In this document: positions 1 to 13,829 of the stretch, piece after piece
Numbering within the stretch: position 1 is the stretch's first letter
How the letters are laid out: each line of letters opens with the position of its first letter
NCBI GenBank assembly: GCA_965203805.1
Contig: OZ241917.1
Span: forward strand, 3,680,001-3,744,000
DNA from: Candidatus Latescibacterota bacterium
Lineage (GTDB): Bacteria; Latescibacterota; UBA2968; GCA-2709665
Length of the DNA: 64,000 nucleotides
Reading direction: 5' to 3'
Made by a program: the position numbers and the translations under genes
Notes under the pieces: model-generated
The model's database searches: none
The model's input: only the letters and a program-made list of their open reading frames with translations
What the model was told of the DNA's origin: nothing

Positions 1-317
1 GGAACCTCTGATCAACCAGAGGGAATGAGCAAGTTGTAACTTATGGGTCGTTTCGGAGGCTGTTTATGTTGAGAGGGTCGTCATCTTTCGGGTTTGCACG
101 GGTGATTCCGGCCCCGGATGCGCTCGGTGCCGGCCATTTTGGCCGCCAGCGTCCGAATTGGAGGCACGGGTGCCTATGTAGTAGCCAGTTCCTGACGTGC
201 CATATGGAAGTTAGCCAAGGCAAACAAGGTGAACAGATGCGCCGTATTCTTCGCCAGACCGCGATACCTGACCTTTCGGTAGCCCCACAGGTGTTTGATG
301 ATCCCAAAGGGATGTTC

Positions 318-353
318 CCTGTCTGCGTGCGTGAGACAGCACGCACAGGCAGG
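318..353. repeat. 36-bp hairpin insertion CCTGTCTG-CGTGC-GTGAGACA-GCACG-CA-CAGGCAGG
   Basis: Precise removal restores the transposase motif RARVEHPF. No target duplication. Confidence 0.88.
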
Positions 354-889
354 GACCCGTGCGCGCGTGCGATTGCTCTTCTTGTTGAACGAAACATCCG
401 CGCAGTTGAGCCGCTTGCCCCGGCGGGCCTTGCGAAGCACTCGCCATTCCACGTCGTTGGCTTCGGCCCGTTCTTTTCGCGTCTGATCCGCATAGGCCTT
501 GTCGCCGTAGATGGTCTTTTCTTTTCCGTGCAGACAGGCATCCATCGCCTGCGAATCATGCACCGAAGCGGGGGTGGTCACCACACTGTGCACCCGTCCC
601 TTCACATCCGCGCCCACGTGCGCCTTCATGCCGAAATGCCACGTGTTGCCCTTCTTCGTGCTGGCCATTTCAGGATCCCGTTTCCGATCCTTGTTCTTCG
701 TCGAAGAAGGCGCGTGAATGATCGTGGCATCCACGATCGTGCCTTCGTTCACGATCAATCCCCGCCTGGACAAGTAGCGCTTCGTTTGCCGAAACAACGC
801 TTCCGTCAACCCATGGTGCTCCAGAAAGTGACGGAATTTGCAGATCGTCGTCTCATCAGGTACGCCGTTGATGTTCACACCCGCAAAGC

Positions 890-908
890 CCTGCCTGCAG
901 CAGGCAGG
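890..908. repeat. 19-bp hairpin insertion CCTGCCTGC-A-GCAGGCAGG
   Basis: Precise removal restores the reading frame and the motif ESMRRFAGVN..VPDETT. Confidence 0.9.
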
Positions 909-1018
909 GACGCATCGACTCCACGTCGTAGAGACTGTCTTCCATTCCCGGATCGCTCAATCCATACCATTGTTGCATAAAGTAGATACGCAGCATCACC
1001 TCCGCACCGATCGGACGA

Positions 1019-1045
1019 CCTGCCTGCGCCGACTCGGCAGGCAGG
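1019..1045. repeat. 27-bp hairpin insertion CCTGCCTG-CG-CCGA-C-TCGG-CAGGCAGG
   Basis: Precise removal restores GNGRRPIG, matching the IS5-type GNGRRP motif. Confidence 0.88.
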
Positions 1046-1390
1046 CGACCGTTGCCAGGTTTCGGATACTTCCTCTCAATCGATTTAAGCAGTATCTCCC
1101 ACGGCAACACCGCATCCATCTCTTTCAGAAAACGTTCCCTGCGCGTCTGCTTCTTCTTCGTCCTGTACGCCAGATCCGAAAAACTCATTTGTTTCATCCC
1201 TGGGCCCCTCGTTCTATGTCGATCCATCAGAAATCACAACACGACGGCTCACGCTCCAATTCTACGACTTTCTGCATGGCGTGCCAATAGGTAACTTAAT
1301 CAGAGCTTCCTTAAGATATGGAAGATATTGAGGGTCACGCTTGTTTGTCTTGACATCATGCTTAGGGTGATAATTTCGCGTGGATTCGGG

Positions 1391-1419
1391 TTGACAACGT
1401 CACTTCCGGGCCGTACGAT
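1391..1419 (+). promoter_or_regulatory. Sigma70-type promoter upstream of the HNH gene
   Basis: TTGACA-17 bp-TACGAT. Confidence 0.6.
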
Positions 1420-1539
1420 AACAACGGGTGTTGCGTTTTGCGACATGCGCAACGCCATGAATCGCCTCGATGGATTGCCGTGACTGTTACAAACCGACAG
1501 GAGGTCCGAAAGTCTCCCGTCAATCCGCATTGATCCACT

Positions 1540-9099: not shown

Positions 9100-12000
9100 T
9101 TACTCTGAATCCGAACTGCCGAAGCGGGTACGGATAAATTCCCTGGTACTTTCTGCCGGGAGTTTCACGGTTCCCGGGCCGCTGCGGACAAAAAAATCAC
9201 CGCCGTCTTCCTTTTCGAGACCCTTCCACGAGAGGAACACCGGTTCCGGGCTCCGCTGGCAACTCACCACGCAGACTTCCTTGCCGTCGACAATCTGCAC
9301 TTCCGGATCGATGCAGGTGCCGGCGCGATCGCCGAGACCGTTTCGCACAACCTGTGCAAGATGGAGCATAAACTTGTCTCGCGTGTCGAGCCGGTCGTGT
9401 TCTATGCCAACGGCCGTACCGTCGTCGGCAACGCCGATCAGAAGGTCTCCGCCCTCCGTGTTGAGGAAGGCAGCGATCGTCTTGATCGCCGCGTGGGTGA
9501 TGCGTTTGTCGTCTTTCCGGTCTTCTTTCAGGTTCCAGCGCAGCGTGGACTTGAACTCCAGGGTCTTCGACTCGCCCTGTTTGATGAGGTCCTCGGCGCT
9601 GCGGTGAGTGCGGACATATTGATCGAACAGAATGTTCTTGATGACTTCGCCAAACGCACGGTCATCGGTGATGCGCTTGTAGAGATCGAAGTTGGAATCT
9701 ACGATCTCCTGGATAACCTCCTCAACCTTGTGATCGAAGGTCAATCGGACATTCTCGCGGGTATTCACGCGCGCCGCTGCGCCAAGCGCCGCGTCGTCCG
9801 AGAGCCTGTCCATCATCTGGCCGAGCGTGGCGCGGTGCTCTGGGCCGACACCAGCCCCGAAGCGTTCGTTCAGTTCGGCGATGATTCGCGACAGGGTCTC
9901 CATTTCTTCTTCGTGTAACCCGTGTGTGTCCTTTGTGCCGACCGGGTCGAGATTCGTAGTCCCTCGCTGGAGATTGATTCGGCCTTTACGGGTTTCCTGA
10001 ATTCGGTACGACTCCATGTCGATGTTCTGCTGAACCTCAAGCGGCAGCACGGCCCGGTCCATTGGCAACAGGCGGCGCAGGTGTCTCGAAAAGACGTACA
10101 GCTTCTCCAGATCAACGTCGTTGAACGGTAGTATCTGCGCGAGAAACGCGTAGAGCCGCACGTAGTCAACGAGCTGGCCCCGGAAGTCTATCTTTTCGGG
10201 TTCATCCAGGGCCGAAAAACGGTCGACAATGGGCTTGAGCACGCCATGAAGCCGGTCCTGTTTGGCGTCGCTGTCGAAGAAGACTTTGGCGAATTCGTCC
10301 ACGTCGCCCTGATCGTATACCGGAAAGTCGGCCAGGCGCGTCTGGACCTCGTAGAGCCGGTTGGGATCGGTCGCCTCCGAGAGCAGGGTCGTTTCGAAAT
10401 AGGGCTCGAAGGACTCTTTAATGTCATCGGCATCATTGGCGAAATCAAGTACCATTGTGCCGTCTTTTCCCGGCTCTGTGCGGTTAATCCTGGAAAGCGT
10501 CTGCACCGCGTTCACGCCGCCCAGTTTCTTGTCGACGTACATGGTGTGCAGAAGCGGCTGGTCGAAACCGGTCTGAAATTTGTTCGCACAGATCAGGAAT
10601 CGATATTCCAGCGCCTTGAACGTCCTGGCGGTCTGCGCCTCGGAAACGCCGTTCATGCCCGGTTCGGTATAAGATTGGCCGCCGTCCTCGACAGTGCCGG
10701 AGAACGCAACCAACGCTTTAAACGGATAGCCCTGCTCGGTGAGATAATTCTCCACTGCGAGTTTGAACCGCACGGCGTGCAATCGGGAGCGGGTGACGAT
10801 CATCGCCTTCGCCTTGCCGTCGACCTGGCTTTGCACTTGGTCGGCGAAGTGGTCGACCATGATTCGGACCTTCTGTTCAATGGCATGGGGGTGCAGATCG
10901 ACAAATGATCTGAGCAGATACGTCGCCTTGTTCCTGTCGTAGCGAGGATCGTCTTCCACCGTCTTCAACAGCCGCCAATAGGACTTGTACGTTGTGTAGT
11001 TCTCCAGGACGTCGAGGATGAATCCCTCTTCGATCGCCTGGCGCATGCTGTATAGATGGAACGGTTCGAACGATCCGTCCGGACGGCGTGTGCCGAACAG
11101 CTCCAGCGTCTTGGATTTCGGGGTCGCGGTGAAGGCAAAGGTCGAAAGATTCGGGAGGCGCCCGCGCTTCTCCATTTCCTCAAGGATCGCGTTTTCAAGT
11201 TCCTCTTCCGGTGTTTCGGCACCTGATTCCTCGTCCTCTGCTTCCGTGAGAGAATCCGAAGCCAGTACCGCCTTCAGGCTCTTCGTACTCTCCCCGGACT
11301 GCGACGAATGCGCTTCGTCGACAATCAGGGCGAACCGCTTGCCGGGCAACTGACCGATTTCCTCAGCGATCACCGGGAATTTTTGCAACGTGGTGACGAT
11401 AATTGTCTTCCCGGATTCAAGCGCTTCTTTGAGCTGGCGCGAGGTCGTATCGATATTTTCCACAACCCCCAGGGTCTGCTCGAACTGACGCATTGCGCCC
11501 TGGAGCGCGCGGTCGAGCACGCGCCGGTCCGTGATCACCACAATCGAATCGAAAACGCGTTTGTCTTCGGCATCGTGCAACGTGGACAACTGGTGGGCGA
11601 GCCAGGCGATGGTAAACGTCTTGCCGCTTCCGGCCGAGTGCTGGATCAGATAGCGCTGTCCCGCACCTGTCCGTCGAGCATTGGAAATGAGCTGGCGCAC
11701 ACAATCGAGTTGCTGGTAGCGCGGAAAAACGAGCGTCTTCTTGCCCGTCTTACGACCGTTCTCGTCTTCCTCCTCGACTTCGTGGACGAACTGCCGCACC
11801 AGGTCCAGCACGCTGTCGCGCGACCAGGTCTCCTCCCAGAGGTACGACGTGGCATAGCCGGATTGCGTGGGCGGAACCGGCGGGTTCCCCGCACCGCGGT
11901 TGTTGCCCCGGTTAAAGGGAAGGAAGCGTGTCTTGACACCGGCAAGGCGGGTGGTGACGTAGACCAGTTCCGGATCGACCGCGAAGTGCGCCAGGCAGCG

Positions 12001-12633
12001 ACCATAGGCCAACAACGGCTCGCCGCGGGGGTCGCGGTCCGTCTTGTACTGGCGGATTGCGTCCTCGACGGACTGACCGCTGAGCAGGTTCTTGAGTTCG
12101 GCGGTGAATATGGGGATGCCGTTCAGAAACAGGACCAGATCCAGGCTCTTCTCGTTCTTCGTGCTGTAGCGTACCTGGCGGACAACCGTGAAAAAGTTGG
12201 CCATATACAGTTGGCGCGTCTCCTCGTTGAGCCCGCTGGCCGGCCGGAAGTAAGCCAGCCGAAACGTGCAGCCCATATCCTTAATACCGTTTCGAAACAC
12301 GTGGAGAACGCCACGGCGATCGATTTCAGACGCCAGGCGCCTGAGAAAACGATCCCTGACCTCAGCGCCGTAGTGATGGGACAGCTTCTTCCATTCCTTA
12401 GGCTGCGTCGCAACGATGAAATTGTGAACGTCTCTGGACAGAAGGCACAGGCTGCGGTCGTAGTCCTCGGGCGTTCCCTTGAAGTAACCGCCGGGTTCCA
12501 TTCCCTCGCCGCCGACAGGCAACCGGCCTTCACGGACCCCGGCTGGAAGACCTCCTGATCCATCCTTGCCCTGGCCGAGCAGTGCCGCCTCGATGGCGTC
12601 TTCGAAGGCTTTTTCAGAAACAACGGGACTCAT
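9100..12633 (-). CDS. hsdR: Type I restriction enzyme R subunit with C-terminal Schlafen/AlbA_2 domain
   Basis: DLVLFLNGIP..ELK nuclease motif; HSAGSGKT; DEAH; FTATP; KFQTGFDQP; VQTLSRINR; C-terminal GESKTLEFKS..AFLNTEGGDLLIGVADDG. ATG at 12633 overlaps the Fic stop. Confidence 0.95.
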   Translation of the reverse strand: MSPVVSEKAFEDAIEAALLGQGKDGSGGLPAGVREGRLPVGGEGMEPGGYFKGTPEDYDRSLCLLSRDVHNFIVATQPKEWKKLSHHYGAEVRDRFLRRLASEIDRRGVLHVFRNGIKDMGCTFRLAYFRPASGLNEETRQLYMANFFTVVRQVRYSTKNEKSLDLVLFLNGIPIFTAELKNLLSGQSVEDAIRQYKTDRDPRGEPLLAYGRCLAHFAVDPELVYVTTRLAGVKTRFLPFNRGNNRGAGNPPVPPTQSGYATSYLWEETWSRDSVLDLVRQFVHEVEEEDENGRKTGKKTLVFPRYQQLDCVRQLISNARRTGAGQRYLIQHSAGSGKTFTIAWLAHQLSTLHDAEDKRVFDSIVVITDRRVLDRALQGAMRQFEQTLGVVENIDTTSRQLKEALESGKTIIVTTLQKFPVIAEEIGQLPGKRFALIVDEAHSSQSGESTKSLKAVLASDSLTEAEDEESGAETPEEELENAILEEMEKRGRLPNLSTFAFTATPKSKTLELFGTRRPDGSFEPFHLYSMRQAIEEGFILDVLENYTTYKSYWRLLKTVEDDPRYDRNKATYLLRSFVDLHPHAIEQKVRIMVDHFADQVQSQVDGKAKAMIVTRSRLHAVRFKLAVENYLTEQGYPFKALVAFSGTVEDGGQSYTEPGMNGVSEAQTARTFKALEYRFLICANKFQTGFDQPLLHTMYVDKKLGGVNAVQTLSRINRTEPGKDGTMVLDFANDADDIKESFEPYFETTLLSEATDPNRLYEVQTRLADFPVYDQGDVDEFAKVFFDSDAKQDRLHGVLKPIVDRFSALDEPEKIDFRGQLVDYVRLYAFLAQILPFNDVDLEKLYVFSRHLRRLLPMDRAVLPLEVQQNIDMESYRIQETRKGRINLQRGTTNLDPVGTKDTHGLHEEEMETLSRIIAELNERFGAGVGPEHRATLGQMMDRLSDDAALGAAARVNTRENVRLTFDHKVEEVIQEIVDSNFDLYKRITDDRAFGEVIKNILFDQYVRTHRSAEDLIKQGESKTLEFKSTLRWNLKEDRKDDKRITHAAIKTIAAFLNTEGGDLLIGVADDGTAVGIEHDRLDTRDKFMLHLAQVVRNGLGDRAGTCIDPEVQIVDGKEVCVVSCQRSPEPVFLSWKGLEKEDGGDFFVRSGPGTVKLPAESTREFIRTRFGSSDSE

Positions 12634-13829
12634 AATGCGACTCGTGCAGGCGTTGTGGTTTTCGTTTCGTCCTCTTTTGCGACAGACGGCGCATCCAGGA
12701 CTTCCAGCACTGCGTCCGCACAATATACACGGTTTCGCTGTGCTTCGCCAACCGGCGTAACAATTCCTGCCGACTGTAACCTATCGACGGCGCGACGAGC
12801 CGTGGTATAGGCGACACCGAGCTTCGATGCAAGCGTGGGGACGTTCCAGAACGGGAAGTCAGCGAACAGTTCCAGGACTTTCTCAAGATTCGCCGATCTG
12901 GCCCCGGCGAACTGATCCGACCAGAGGTGGAACAATTCGTCGATACGTCGGATCCGACCAATGGCGTCTTCCGCCTGTTCGGCAACACCTTGCAGAAAGT
13001 ACACCAGCCACGCCTCCCACGCTCCGTCGCGGGTCACTCGTAGCAGGTGCTCATAATACTCCTTGCGCGTCGATTCAAAGTACGGGCTCAGGTATAGAAG
13101 TGGCGATGGTAAGACGCCACGCGAAACCAGCAGCAGTGGAATAAGCAGCCGTCCAATCCGTCCATTCCCGTCGAGAAACGGATGAATCGCCTCGAACTGT
13201 GAATGCATAAGGGCGGCGTGGACGAGAGGAGGCAGTGATTCGTCGTGAAGAAAGCTCTCCCACGCGCCGAGGCATCCCGTCAGTTCGTCGGGTGGTGGCG
13301 GCACGTACGTGGCATTATTCAGCACCGACCCGGGCGGGCCTATCCAGTTCTGGCTGCGGCGAAACTCACCAGGCGTTGCTCTTTCGCCACGCACACCGTG
13401 CATAAGACGCTCGTGCAGTTCGCGAACCAGCCGTAGCGAAAGCGGAAGCGTTTCCAGGCGATCAATACCGTAGTCCAACGCCACGATATAGTTCGCCACT
13501 TCCTCCAATTCTTCCGCGCTTCGCTCTACCCTCGCTCCGGCATCTGCAGCGAACAACTCGCCAAGGGAAACCTGCGTCCCCTCGATGCGGCTCGAAAGCA
13601 CGGCTTCCTTGAACAGGAACGACCGGATCAAGAGATACGGAACCGCCATGGGCCTGCCTTCTCCCGCAAGACGGCCCATGGCATTATCGGCACGCGAAAG
13701 CGCGAGTACCAATTCTCCGTCCCAGGAAATCTCGGGTGGAAGAGGGCCCGGGACAAATGCGCTGTACCCACTTGGACATCTGACCGTTCGACCGTGGGGT
13801 TGGCGTTGTCCGTTGTTTCCGGATGTCAC
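12630..13829 (-). CDS. Fic family protein with C-terminal HTH
   Basis: HPFLDGNGRIGR; EAVLSSRIEG; PGEFRRSQNWIG. Confidence 0.95.
   Translation of the reverse strand: MTSGNNGQRQPHGRTVRCPSGYSAFVPGPLPPEISWDGELVLALSRADNAMGRLAGEGRPMAVPYLLIRSFLFKEAVLSSRIEGTQVSLGELFAADAGARVERSAEELEEVANYIVALDYGIDRLETLPLSLRLVRELHERLMHGVRGERATPGEFRRSQNWIGPPGSVLNNATYVPPPPDELTGCLGAWESFLHDESLPPLVHAALMHSQFEAIHPFLDGNGRIGRLLIPLLLVSRGVLPSPLLYLSPYFESTRKEYYEHLLRVTRDGAWEAWLVYFLQGVAEQAEDAIGRIRRIDELFHLWSDQFAGARSANLEKVLELFADFPFWNVPTLASKLGVAYTTARRAVDRLQSAGIVTPVGEAQRNRVYCADAVLEVLDAPSVAKEDETKTTTPARVAL

What the first reader, a model, noticed from the sequence alone, without database searches (positions are those of the whole stretch)
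318..1045. Three scarless constant-stem, variable-loop hairpin insertions in one IS5 transposase
Seen in sequence: three elements of 36, 19 and 27 bp (318-353, 890-908, 1019-1045) all start CCTGYCTG and end CAGGCAGG but have unrelated interiors. Deleting each exactly restores a conserved IS5 motif (RARVEHPF, SMRRFAG, GNGRRP). Deleting all three gives an intact 313-aa ORF, so no base was lost or duplicated. The two longer elements share one fold in opposite orientations: 8-bp outer stem, 2-nt bulge, inner stem, loop. The 19-mer frameshifts the gene and the 36-mer sits directly before the E of EHPF, the expected catalytic glutamate. I saw no such element in the other ~62 kb. Inference: a family of ultra-short insertion elements with no target duplication and an unknown mobiliser. 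They either target mobile DNA, acting as a transposon-silencing mechanism, or persist only where selection is relaxed.
Basis: partly seen in the sequence, partly recalled or inferred. Interest (0 to 1): 0.85.

Follow-up and report, generated by a model that had tools for sequence, protein, structure and literature searches.

The report
Tiny mobile hairpins inside a transposase
Three very short DNA hairpins that recently landed in a transposon gene belong to a family of tiny selfish palindromes found in many bacterial phyla and in viral contigs, and the enzyme that copies them is still unknown.

Summary
Window 318-353, 890-908 and 1019-1045 are exact insertions of 36, 19 and 27 nt in an IS5-family transposase. 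Related genomes and a coral-metagenome contig (99.3% identical) carry the same IS without them, base for base. They belong to a family of CCTGYCTG...CAGRCAGG hairpins: 231 minimal copies in this genome, 111 of them with ungapped empty sites elsewhere in it, and many nested in each other. The family occurs in relatives, in records labelled with about 20 phyla and in 30 viral contigs. There it mostly sits inside ORFs, and 87 of 94 copies have lengths divisible by three.

"Ultra-short, scarless, mobiliser unknown" is supported. "Transposon silencing" is not. About 88% of copies here lie in non-coding DNA, IS hits fit relaxed selection, and the hairpin-laden IS exists as five copies, each with its own target duplication.

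I read them as REP/RPE-like non-autonomous elements moved in trans through a folded single strand. A RAYT-type enzyme is the best candidate and is unproven: its orthologue tracks hairpin abundance (6 of 6 genomes against 3 of 55), but no RAYT is conservedly flanked by these hairpins. One RNA contig gave no support for removal at RNA level. This is a new variant of a known kind.

The parts
1..1310 (-). IS5-family insertion sequence, 1228 bp without the inserts, with the transposase on the minus strand. It is one of five copies in the genome.
   Evidence: The five copies are 99.85-100% identical over 1316 nt, and the alignments end at these borders. Pfam finds DDE_Tnp_1 and DUF772.
1..15 (+). 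Left terminal inverted repeat, GGAACCTCTGATCAA.
   Evidence: Read. It is found at the ends of all five copies.
1296..1310 (-). Right terminal inverted repeat, which reads GGAAGCTCTGATTAA on the minus strand.
1311..1314 (.). Right copy of the 4-bp target duplication TTAA. The left copy lies just outside the window.
   Evidence: Flanks of the five copies are TTGA, TCAA, TTAA, GTAC and ATGA(G), each duplicated on both sides.
318..353 (+). 36-nt hairpin insert (D-type, CCTGTCTG-CG-TGCGTG-loop-CACGCA-CAGGCAGG). It adds 12 codons between V and E of RARV|EHPF.
   Evidence: It is absent from G002, G013 and G003 and from contigs in runs X4, X8 and X18. An identical copy sits at the same site in G007.
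890..908 (+). 19-nt hairpin insert (8-bp stem, 3-nt loop). It frameshifts the transposase between SMRR and FAG.
   Evidence: It is absent from G002, G013 and G007 and from the X8 contig. The same 19-mer occurs 9 times in this genome and is the commonest variant listed for a Dehalococcoidia-labelled genome.
1019..1045 (+). 27-nt hairpin insert (B-type, CCTGCCTG-CG-CCGA-C-TCGG-CAGGCAGG). It adds 9 codons within GNGR|RP. The border may equally lie one base to the right.
   Evidence: It is absent from G002, G013 and G007 and from the X4 and X8 contigs.
856..1227 (-). N-terminal transposase fragment (123 aa, DUF772), cut off by the frameshift.
174..878 (-). C-terminal transposase fragment (234 aa, DDE domain). 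It reads through the 36-mer as PACACCLTHADR.

Best explanation
The three inserts are recent insertions of tiny (19-37 nt), non-autonomous, hairpin-shaped mobile DNA elements. The family is defined by the ends CCTGYCTG...CAGRCAGG, a 2-nt bulge, an inner stem that varies between subfamilies but stays complementary, and a free loop.

Shown here:
- The elements enter DNA precisely, without duplicating or deleting target bases. The site is usually followed by C, and in this genome it is usually G^C.
- They enter each other, other repeats, IS elements, intergenic DNA and, where tolerated, coding sequence.
- Copies inside genes are mostly multiples of three in length and are read through as 7-12 extra residues.

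In this IS the 19-mer breaks the frame, and the 36-mer splits the R-x3-E motif. The encoded transposase is therefore most likely dead.

Inferred, not shown:
- Movement goes through a folded single strand and is catalysed in trans by a hairpin-specific nuclease-ligase. The best candidate is an HUH Y1 (RAYT-type) transposase, at about 0.3 on its own. Another, unidentified enzyme is about as likely.
- IS elements are hit so often because insertions there cost the host nothing. They are not aimed at.
- The five filled IS copies arose in one of three ways: trans-mobilisation by a hairpin-free copy that is now lost, gene conversion among copies, or reversible excision.
For: Insertion status:
- Related IS copies in G002 and G013 are empty at all three sites, at the exact borders. 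G003 is empty at the 36-mer site.
- A 1286-nt contig in coral-metagenome DNA (X8) is this IS with 36, 19 and 27 nt missing and 9 substitutions in 1228 nt. A sponge DNA run (X4) has contigs lacking the 36-mer and the 27-mer.

Family and mobility:
- There are 231 minimal copies in the genome. Of these, 111 have ungapped paralogous empty sites, some with 90 of 90 identical flanks.
- Nested insertions are frequent.
- One site of another repeat holds a 33-mer in this genome but the 36-mer in G008 and G013.
- Filled and empty states of the 36-mer site occur in two separate pairs of close IS relatives. G007 and G003 are 97% identical. The window IS and the X8 contig are 99.3% identical. So at least two events happened at one site.

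Structure:
- Stems co-vary between subfamilies and loops differ.
- One arm carries T opposite G, which pairs on one strand only.

Spread:
- Nine of 61 related genomes have 60 or more copies.
Ninety-four of them are in records labelled with about 20 other phyla.
- Five such genomes hold 3-53 copies, against 0-1 for the reversed control pattern.
- Thirty viral contigs carry it.

Coding fit:
- Eighty-seven of 94 B-type copies outside the home phylum are 3n long, where 4 of the 10 admitted lengths are 3n. Forty-three of 44 copies in the viral loci are 3n.
- Copies lie inside the reading frames of DnaE, DnaG, TsaD, a PBP, HrpA and others.
- One copy aligns as an 11-residue insertion against a solved GGPP synthase.

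RAYT:
- The genome has two Y1/RAYT domains (NF047646, 104 and 88 bits), each with a hairpin beside it.
- All 6 genomes that have this RAYT at 77% identity or more hold 66-292 hairpins. Only 3 of the 55 genomes without it hold 60 or more.
- RAYT-like ORFs occur in 4 of 117 hairpin loci, 812 kb in all.
Against: Against a RAYT:
- The hairpin next to the RAYT is absent at the same place in G001, whose RAYT is 91% identical, so the flanking is not conserved.
- None of the 22 Y1 loci fetched from other genomes has such a hairpin within about 1.5 kb.
- Two complete genomes, G015 (248 copies) and G024 (133), lack the orthologue.
- A Dehalococcoidia-labelled genome has 52 copies and no Y1 match at all. 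This counts for less because its 19-mers ride inside a larger repeat.
- There is no GTAG or CGTC tag.
- None of the 30 viral loci has a RAYT.

Against single-strand transposition at the replication fork:
- Orientation shows no replichore bias, with 60 plus against 58 minus on one replichore and 33 against 21 on the other. The origin and terminus are poorly defined by skew.

Against counting all copies as separate events:
- Many copies multiplied as passengers of larger repeats. Examples are the 31-mers between 3.245 and 3.47 Mb and the IS copies.

Against 'dead transposase':
- All five IS copies are filled, each has its own target duplication, and no helper paralogue exists in the genome.

Other limits:
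- The genomes compared are kin, so the 6 of 6 against 3 of 55 contrast rests on about two independent contrasts.
- All runs laid were contigs, which cannot show rare excised forms.
Confidence: 0.7

Rival explanations
1. The hairpins are moved by an enzyme that is not a Y1/RAYT transposase. It could be a serine or tyrosine recombinase that crosses over at the short G^C core, a phage- or island-borne nuclease-ligase, or a near-universal host enzyme that acts on hairpins. In this reading the RAYT association reflects shared ancestry only.
For: - No Y1 gene outside this genome is flanked by these hairpins: 0 of 22 loci.
- The flanking seen in this genome is a lineage-specific insertion.
- Hairpin-rich complete genomes G015 and G024 lack the orthologue, and G065 has no Y1 match.
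- The family crosses about 20 labelled phyla and occurs in viral contigs with no RAYT nearby.
- In this genome the target preference is the symmetric dinucleotide G^C at 72% on each side, as expected for a two-base crossover core.
- There is no replichore bias.
Against: - No such enzyme was identified, and no candidate family was tested.
- Outside the home phylum the preference is one-sided: +1 is C in 72% of copies and -1 is mixed. That fits single-strand HUH chemistry better than a symmetric core.
- Two of the three inserts in this IS lie at C^G, not G^C.
- The RAYT orthologue contrast is strong as far as it goes (6 of 6 against 3 of 55).
Confidence: 0.3
2. One reading: the hairpins are a host mechanism, or a parasite's strategy, that targets mobile DNA and silences transposons.
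For: - In this genome the intragenic copies lie in transposases of at least 5 IS families and in HmaB.
- This IS took three hits, one of them inside the catalytic motif.
- Another IS (DDE_Tnp_1_4, locus L155) carries four.
- Nine of 94 loci outside the home phylum are Hma defence genes.
Against: - Of 231 copies, 203 have non-coding flanks. Only 34 of 231 lie inside crudely called genes.
- Counted as independent events, about a dozen in IS DNA against roughly a hundred in intergenic DNA is near what sequence length alone predicts. That is my rough estimate.
- In other phyla, 59 of 99 copies sit inside ORFs, and those ORFs include housekeeping genes.
- The filled IS exists in five copies, each with its own target duplication.
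- Neither a guide-like match between hairpin interior and target nor an extended target motif exists.
Confidence: 0.06
3. The inserts are harmless because they are removed after transcription, or bypassed in translation, so the transposase stays active. That would explain five filled copies with target duplications.
For: - Five filled copies at 99.85-100% identity, each with its own duplication, and no helper paralogue.
- The inserts are stable hairpins with constant ends.
- A metatranscriptome contig (X18) lacks the 36-mer.
Against: - DNA from the same sample (X8) lacks the 36-mer too, so the RNA contig copies a hairpin-free DNA allele.
- Most copies lie in non-coding DNA, where removal has no meaning.
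- The 3n bias inside genes shows that the inserts are translated and selected for frame. If they were removed, that selection would be unnecessary.
- No Rfam family matches at a meaningful score. There was one chance-level hit, E = 5.9.
- No RNA data of the source strain were available.
Confidence: 0.04
4. The hairpins are not mobile on their own. They spread only as passengers of larger repeats, IS elements and horizontally transferred genes, and by gene conversion.
For: - Many copies are passengers: the 31-mers inside a larger repeat between 3.245 and 3.47 Mb, the 19-mers of G065, the 36-mers of G013 and the 15 copies in the five IS.
Against: - Empty paralogous sites with 90 of 90 identical flanks exist.
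- The same variant is found at unrelated loci, and different variants are found at one site.
- Elements are nested inside each other.
- The identical 36-mer sits in two IS lineages that differ within 10-25 nt on either side of it. A conversion tract would have to be under about 45 nt.
- Copies lie inside the reading frames of vertically inherited genes in distant phyla.
Confidence: 0.05

Closest known systems
REP elements, REPINs and their RAYT (TnpA_REP) transposases, including intragenic REPs. Sources: Di Nocera et al. 2013, PMC3733652, abstract and passages seen. Quentin et al. 2018, PMC6006769, section 13 and passages seen. Bertels and Rainey 2011, PMC3116915, passages seen.
   Same: - Both are 20-40-nt GC-rich imperfect palindromes in hundreds of copies, mostly extragenic in this genome.
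- Stems carry G-T pairs and bulges.
- Some copies lie in frame inside genes, DnaE and repair genes among them.
- Some REP families sit inside other small palindromes.
- A RAYT gene is present in the genome.
   Different: - There is no GTAG or CGTC tag at either end.
- No RAYT is conservedly flanked by these hairpins.
- The unit that comes and goes is a single hairpin, not a doublet.
- The same 8-nt ends are shared by records labelled with about 20 phyla and by viral contigs. The paper describes some REP families as species-specific and others as shared by several species.
- Outside this phylum, 59 of 99 copies lie inside ORFs, and 87 of 94 B-type copies are 3n long.
Rickettsia palindromic elements (RPE; Ogata, Claverie and co-workers). 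Seen only as cited in PMC3733652; otherwise recalled.
   Same: Both are selfish palindromes inserted in frame in protein-coding genes and translated as extra residues in tolerated loops.
   Different: RPEs are about 100-150 bp and confined to Rickettsia (recalled). These elements are 19-37 nt and are spread across phyla.
Small dispersed repeats (SDR) of Nostoc and relatives (Elhai et al. 2008, Genome Res 18:1484). The paper is not held. Only its reference entry was seen; its content is recalled.
   Same: As recalled, SDRs are mobile-looking repeats of 21-27 nt with hairpin potential. They are found inserted in each other and in MITEs, with no known mobiliser.
   Different: The sequence family and taxa differ (cyanobacteria). 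I could not check their ends, target sites or length phasing.
IS200/IS605-type single-strand 'peel and paste' transposition and its non-autonomous derivatives. The abstract of PMC6006769 was seen in the listing; the rest is recalled.
   Same: Both show hairpin-defined ends, no target duplication, precise absence at empty sites, and a short sequence preference next to the element.
   Different: - Here one hairpin is the whole element.
- The preference is a single base, not a tetra- or pentanucleotide.
- No lagging-strand orientation bias was seen.
- No cognate TnpA is linked.

Membership tests
REP / REPIN-RAYT system | Short (20-40 nt) GC-rich imperfect palindrome present in high copy number. 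| tested here: met
   There are 231 minimal copies of 19-54 nt, mostly 27-37 nt. They fold as hairpins.
REP / REPIN-RAYT system | Conserved GTAG (or CGTC) tetranucleotide at one end of the palindrome. | tested here: not met
   Flank and end logos of 165 unique copies here and of 123 copies from other phyla and viral contigs show only G at -1 and/or C at +1. The ends are CCTG and CAGG.
REP / REPIN-RAYT system | RAYT gene flanked by its cognate REPs (REPtron). | tested here: not met
   One hairpin lies 7 nt after the stop of this genome's RAYT, but the site is empty in G001. None of the 22 Y1 loci fetched from other genomes carries one.
REP / REPIN-RAYT system | Presence of the repeat family co-varies with presence of a RAYT. 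| tested here: inconclusive
   All 6 genomes with the orthologue hold 66-292 copies. Of the 55 without it, 3 are still rich (G007 139, G015 248, G024 133). G065 has 52 copies and no Y1 match. The genomes are kin, so there are few independent contrasts.
REP / REPIN-RAYT system | The replicating unit is an inverted REP doublet (REPIN). | tested here: not met
   Single hairpins are what is present or absent at 111 filled/empty pairs and at the three sites in this IS.
IS200/IS605-type single-strand transposition (mechanism) | No target duplication, and flanks exactly contiguous at empty sites. | tested here: met
IS200/IS605-type single-strand transposition (mechanism) | Insertion next to a specific 4-5-nt target on one side. 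| tested here: inconclusive
   Only one base is preferred. In other phyla +1 is C in 72% of copies and -1 is mixed. In this genome the preference is G^C.
IS200/IS605-type single-strand transposition (mechanism) | Orientation bias with respect to the replication direction. | tested here: not met
   Counts are 60 plus against 58 minus on one replichore and 33 against 21 on the other. The skew-based origin and terminus are imprecise.
MITE | Terminal inverted repeats with a target-site duplication, a length of 70-300 bp, and a parent IS with the same ends. | tested here: not met
   There is no duplication and the length is 19-37 nt. Within the genome, no element of 0.1-8 kb has the subfamily arms at both ends.
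Rickettsia palindromic elements | In-frame palindromic insertions in coding sequence, about 100-150 bp, restricted to Rickettsia. | tested here: not met
   Insertion in frame is met. Size and taxon are not.
Cyanobacterial SDR | Defining sequences and ends of SDR1-8. | not testable with these tools
   The paper is not held, and no cyanobacterial record was among the 117 loci listed.
IS5 family (the host element) | DDE_Tnp_1 transposase with an N-terminal DUF772, terminal inverted repeats, and a 4-bp target duplication. | tested here: met
   Ends and duplications of the five copies are.
Known RNA families (Rfam 15) | A match to a curated covariance model. | tested here: not met
   Window 1-1400 gives only one chance-level hit (ftsZ-DE, 15.5 bits against a 72.2-bit gathering score, E = 5.9).

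The most novel reading that the evidence does not exclude
One family of 19-37-nt hairpins with fixed 8-nt ends is a pan-bacterial DNA parasite. Its lengths are phased to codons. It travels between phyla in phages, IS elements and defence islands, Hma above all.

In this reading it is inserted and precisely removed by an enzyme that is not a flanking RAYT, perhaps a widespread host or phage function. Because removal is exact, it would act as a reversible switch on the genes it enters. That would explain how an IS carrying three 'lethal' inserts still reached five copies.
Probability: 0.2. Interest if true: 0.85.

Novelty: new variant of a known kind. Interest (0 to 1): 0.62.

Why it matters
Mobile DNA is usually thought to need at least two enzyme-binding ends and some tens of bases. 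Here a unit as small as a 19-nt stem-loop is present or absent base-exactly at defined sites.

The same ends recur in records labelled with about 20 phyla and in viral contigs. Their lengths are tuned to reading frames. The family therefore adds 7-12 residues to proteins, replication and cell-wall enzymes included, and it breaks or riddles IS and defence genes.

It offers a clean system for an open question about REP-like repeats: what copies them when no cognate RAYT is attached. The ingredients are defined substrates, natural filled and empty alleles at 99-100% identity, and two candidate enzymes in one genome.

For annotation, recognising these inserts prevents false pseudogene calls, false frameshifts and spurious low-complexity insertions.

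Tried and rejected
- **Removal at RNA level.** One metatranscriptome contig (X18) lacks the 36-mer, but so does DNA of the same sample (X8). This gives no support. All four runs laid were contigs, so rare forms, strand and transcript ends could not be seen.
- **Guide-like homology between hairpin interior and target.** The mean longest common substring is 4.64, against 4.74 ± 0.07 for shuffled pairings of 137 copies. Rejected.
- **Insertion at the centre of longer palindromic targets.** Flank complementarity is 70% at ±1 but 19-28% at ±2 to ±6, and it equals the shuffled-partner control. Rejected.
- **Replichore orientation bias.** None seen.
- **A large parent transposon with the same ends.** Four weak pairs were found, none with subfamily arms.
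- **The palindromes around the RAYT (GGGCAGGGATGCCC) as a genome-wide REP family.** There are only 18 copies, and 16 of them fall in the 0.49-Mb bin that holds the RAYT.
- **Hma presence as a correlate of hairpin number among relatives.** Full-length HmaB also occurs in genomes with 0-8 hairpins.
- **Preference for convergent or divergent intergenic regions.** The split is 135/30/30 for tandem/convergent/divergent, against 61/18/21% of intergenic bases. The gene calls were crude. No bias.
- **Rfam.** No family matched.
- **Literature.** Searches found no description of this family in the held library. Supplements were not consulted and may hold REP consensus lists. Elhai et al. 2008 is not held. 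One search failed on a term that was too long.
- **This scan's own notes, looked up by sequence.** Nothing found.
- **Local RAYT profile.** Four of 117 genome loci matched and 0 of 30 viral loci. This is suggestive at most.
Full report
**What is in the window.**
Window 1-1310 is an IS5-family insertion sequence. Its inverted ends are GGAACCTCTGATCAA and GGAAGCTCTGATTAA, and its transposase lies on the minus strand. Pfam finds DUF772 in the fragment 856-1227(-) and DDE_Tnp_1 in 174-878(-).

The strict pattern CCTGYCTG-N(3-30)-CAGRCAGG matches the window three times, at 318-353, 890-908 and 1019-1045. It matches no shuffle out of 100.

Removing exactly these 36, 19 and 27 nt in a script leaves a 323-aa ORF, or 313 aa from the second ATG. 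It is colinear over 322 aa, with 0 gaps and 90-91% identity, with uninterrupted frames in relatives G002 and G013.

The 19-mer shifts the frame. The 36-mer sits between V and E of R-ARV-E-HPFGII-K. I recall this as the R-x3-E-x6-K catalytic signature of IS4/IS5 transposases, and I did not test it further.

Folded as single-stranded DNA, the three inserts are hairpins of -8 to -11.3 kcal/mol.

**They are insertions, and recent ones.**
G003 is empty at the 36-mer site, the only one of the three sites its contig covers.
- G007 has the identical 36-mer at the same site. It is empty at the other two sites and has a further, degenerate 27-nt hairpin at a fourth site.
- I laid public runs on window 1-1500. 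A coral-metagenome DNA run (X8) holds one 1286-nt contig that is this IS with the 36, 19 and 27 nt missing and 9 substitutions (99.3% identity).
- A sponge DNA run (X4) holds contigs without the 36-mer and without the 27-mer.
- The run that best holds the window (X1) has a contig covering 318-1046 with all three inserts and no difference.
- All these runs are contigs, so rare variants are invisible.
- G007 and G003 are 97% identical to each other and 87-89% identical to the window IS. The 36-mer site is therefore filled in one and empty in the other member of two separate close pairs. At least two events took place at one site: independent insertion of the same variant, or precise loss.

**The family in this genome.**
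- The 5.87-Mb genome has 231 minimal, non-nested matches. The commonest lengths are 33 nt (78 copies), 31 (49), 30 (27), 27 (16), 36 (14), 19 (12) and 37 (10). By length class, 151 are 3n, 74 are 3n+1 and 6 are 3n+2.
- They fall into subfamilies that share the outer 8 nt but have different, internally complementary inner stems and variable loops.
- For 111 of the 231, joining the two flanks gives a sequence found ungapped elsewhere in the genome. Several match 90 of 90. So copies of other repeats and IS elements differ by the exact presence of a hairpin.
- Elements are often nested in one another at defined points.
- By a codon-usage score, 203 of 231 have non-coding flanks on both sides, against 676 of 2000 random positions.
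- With crude gene calls covering 72% of the genome, 34 of 231 lie inside genes.
- The intragenic cases that I could assign are transposases of at least five families and the defence methylase HmaB. The other ORF-spanned copies lie 36-80 codons from the start of the stop-to-stop frame, and 316 codons in for the DnaE-like ORF. In every case they lie before the first Pfam domain, so probably upstream of the true start.
- Many copies are passengers. The 31-mers sit in a larger repeat concentrated between 3.245 and 3.47 Mb. Fifteen copies sit in the five IS copies.

**The family elsewhere.**
- Among 61 related genomes, 42 have at least one match and 9 have 60 or more. Sister species have 0-8.
Twenty-three are in records labelled Candidatus Latescibacterota, which carry variants identical to this genome's.
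- The other 94 are in records labelled Verrucomicrobiota (13), Bacteroidota and Ignavibacteriales (13), deltaproteobacterial groups (11), Planctomycetota (9), Patescibacteria/CPR (7), Lentisphaerae (5), Kiritimatiellae (4), Methylomirabilota (4), Gammaproteobacteria (4) and a dozen more. Three cultured strains are among them.
- Five such genomes hold 53, 12, 3, 29 and 52 copies, against 0-1 for the reversed control pattern.
- Thirty viral contigs carry the pattern.
- Outside the home phylum, 87 of 94 B-type copies are 27, 30, 33 or 36 nt long, although the pattern admits ten lengths. In the viral loci, 43 of 44 copies are 3n.
- There, 59 of 99 copies lie inside ORFs of at least 150 aa, against 84% of random positions.
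- The ORFs include DnaE, DnaG, TsaD, a PBP transpeptidase, HrpA, a polyprenyl synthase, type I R-M subunits and PglZ.
- In the polyprenyl synthase, the hairpin-coded residues align as an 11-residue insertion against a solved GGPP synthase.
- Nine of the 94 loci are genes of the Hma defence system (HmaA, HmaB, HmaC), at different positions in the proteins. I did not compute a background, but no genome devotes a tenth of its DNA to Hma.

**Clues to the mechanism.**
- Insertion is scarless.
- In this genome, the base before the element is G in 72% and the base after it is C in 72% of 165 unique copies, with both orientations pooled.
- In 123 oriented B-type copies from other phyla and viral contigs, only the base after the element is constrained (C, 72%).
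- Two of the three inserts in this IS lie at C^G.
- Complementarity of the flanks does not extend beyond that one pair.
- The hairpin interior shows no excess similarity to its target.
- Different variants occupy the same site in different genomes. Site choice therefore belongs to the target and the enzyme, not to the variant.
- One strand can pair T with G where the other has C opposite A. Stems co-vary across subfamilies. Both points argue for a folded single strand as the recognised form.
- I found no replichore bias in orientation. IS608-type elements are said to show such a bias (abstract of PMC6006769, seen). I found no large parent element and no Rfam family.

**The mobiliser.**
The genome has two Y1/RAYT domains. 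One is a 201-aa gene (NF047646, 104 bits). The other lies in frame inside HmaB (88 bits).

A 33-mer sits 7 nt after the stop of the first, and a 27-mer sits at the left edge of the second.

In favour of RAYT:
- Orthologues of the 201-aa RAYT at 77% identity or more occur in G001, G008, G011, G013 and G016. Those genomes, and this one, hold 66-292 hairpins.
- Of the 55 genomes without it, only G007 (139 copies; a draft), G015 (248) and G024 (133) are rich.

Against RAYT:
- The hairpin beside the RAYT is missing at the same spot in G001.
- None of the 22 Y1 loci fetched from other genomes has one.
- G065 has 52 copies and no Y1 match, although its 19-mers ride in a larger repeat.
- The genomes are kin, so the contrast rests on about two independent gains.

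RAYT is therefore a candidate, not a finding. I give it about 0.3, about the same to an unidentified enzyme, and the rest to doubt about the single-strand model itself.

**The paradox of the filled IS.**
The genome has five copies of this IS, 99.85-100% identical. All carry all three hairpins, and each has its own duplication (TTGA, TCAA, TTAA, GTAC, ATGA(G)). No other paralogue of the transposase exists in the genome at E ≤ 1e-5.

Three explanations remain open, and the data do not choose among them:
- The copies were mobilised by a hairpin-free copy that has since been lost. Such an allele exists in nature.
- The hairpins spread among existing copies by conversion.
- Excision is reversible.

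The one relevant RNA contig does not favour removal at RNA level, and the 3n bias argues that inserts are translated.

**Comparison and novelty.**
The nearest known things are these:
- REP elements with their RAYTs, including REPs found in frame inside DnaE, uvr and rec genes and inside other small palindromes (PMC3733652, abstract and passages; PMC6006769, section 13).
- Rickettsia palindromic elements (as cited there).
- The cyanobacterial SDRs (recalled; paper not held).

This family works like them but fails the REP membership tests that I could run. It has no GTAG or CGTC tag, no RAYT conservedly flanked by it, and single hairpins rather than doublets as the unit.

It differs in breadth, with the same ends in about 20 labelled phyla and in viral contigs. 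It also differs in its codon-phased lengths and its concentration in Hma genes.

My searches of the held library found no description of it. Supplements were closed.

Notes of this scan describe comparable tiny hairpins in CPR and other genomes. These are unchecked leads, not evidence, and I could not tell whether they are the same family.

I file it as a new variant of a known kind.

**Limits.**
- Gene calls were home-made.
- Copy counts mix independent events with passengers.
- The labels of metagenome-assembled genomes are the depositors'.
- No raw reads or RNA of the source strain were available.

Noticed in passing
L002:508-3231 (the genome's HmaB); also L100:3473-7615: The defence methylase HmaB (PADLOC HmaB, 1020 bits) carries a RAYT/Y1 domain in frame, between HmaB profile positions about 200 and 210, flanked by a short inverted repeat (CTGGGAGCGCGG / CCGCGCTCCCAG). 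The same split form is seen in G008, G011 (twice) and G016 (which has two Y1 domains in one 1441-aa frame). A Lentisphaeria-labelled MAG also has a Y1 domain in frame in HmaB, though its HmaB match resumes later. It could be a fusion or an in-frame selfish insertion.
   Followed up: partly
L155:1-1434: A second IS (DDE_Tnp_1_4 transposase, 449 bits) carries four hairpins of 21, 21, 33 and 19 nt. Its other copies in the genome lack some of them at sites whose 90-nt joined flanks are 100% identical, which points to very recent gain or loss within this genome.
   Followed up: partly
L144:9500-19500: Intergenic arrays of roughly 159-bp tandem units, built around the palindrome CCCCCTTCC-TCACA-GGAAGGGGG, lie between genes of 1296 and 1776 aa. 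About 40 copies of one 31-nt hairpin variant lie mostly within a roughly 225-kb region, and they flip orientation near genome position 3.337 Mb.
   Followed up: partly
L001:700-2500: The 201-aa RAYT gene sits in a local cluster of roughly 230-bp repeats that contain the palindrome GAGGGCAGGGATGCCCTC, sometimes preceded by GTAG. Sixteen of its 18 genomic copies lie in the same 0.49-Mb bin as the RAYT. It looks like a small private REP-like cluster, not a genome-wide family.
   Followed up: partly
genome-wide, outside the window (k-mer count): A 37-nt unit, GTTTCAATCCTTGTTCTGATGGAAGATTCTCTCTGAG, occurs about 65 times and looks like a CRISPR repeat. Other abundant short repeats (GGGGGAGAGGTCTGCG, GACATTCCTGTCTGCC, ACATGGATGGACAGGAT) are frequent landing sites of the hairpins.
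   Followed up: no
L004:1380-2670: The related IS in G007 has, besides the identical 36-mer, a degenerate 27-nt hairpin (ends CCTGCC / CAGGCGG) at a fourth site that is empty in all the other copies aligned.
   Followed up: no
window:1540-13829: The IS lies next to an HNH-domain protein (1540-2646). It is a few kb from a type I restriction R subunit fused to a Schlafen/AlbA_2 domain (9100-12723, minus strand) and from a Fic protein (12630-13829, minus strand). This looks like a defence-island setting.
   Followed up: no
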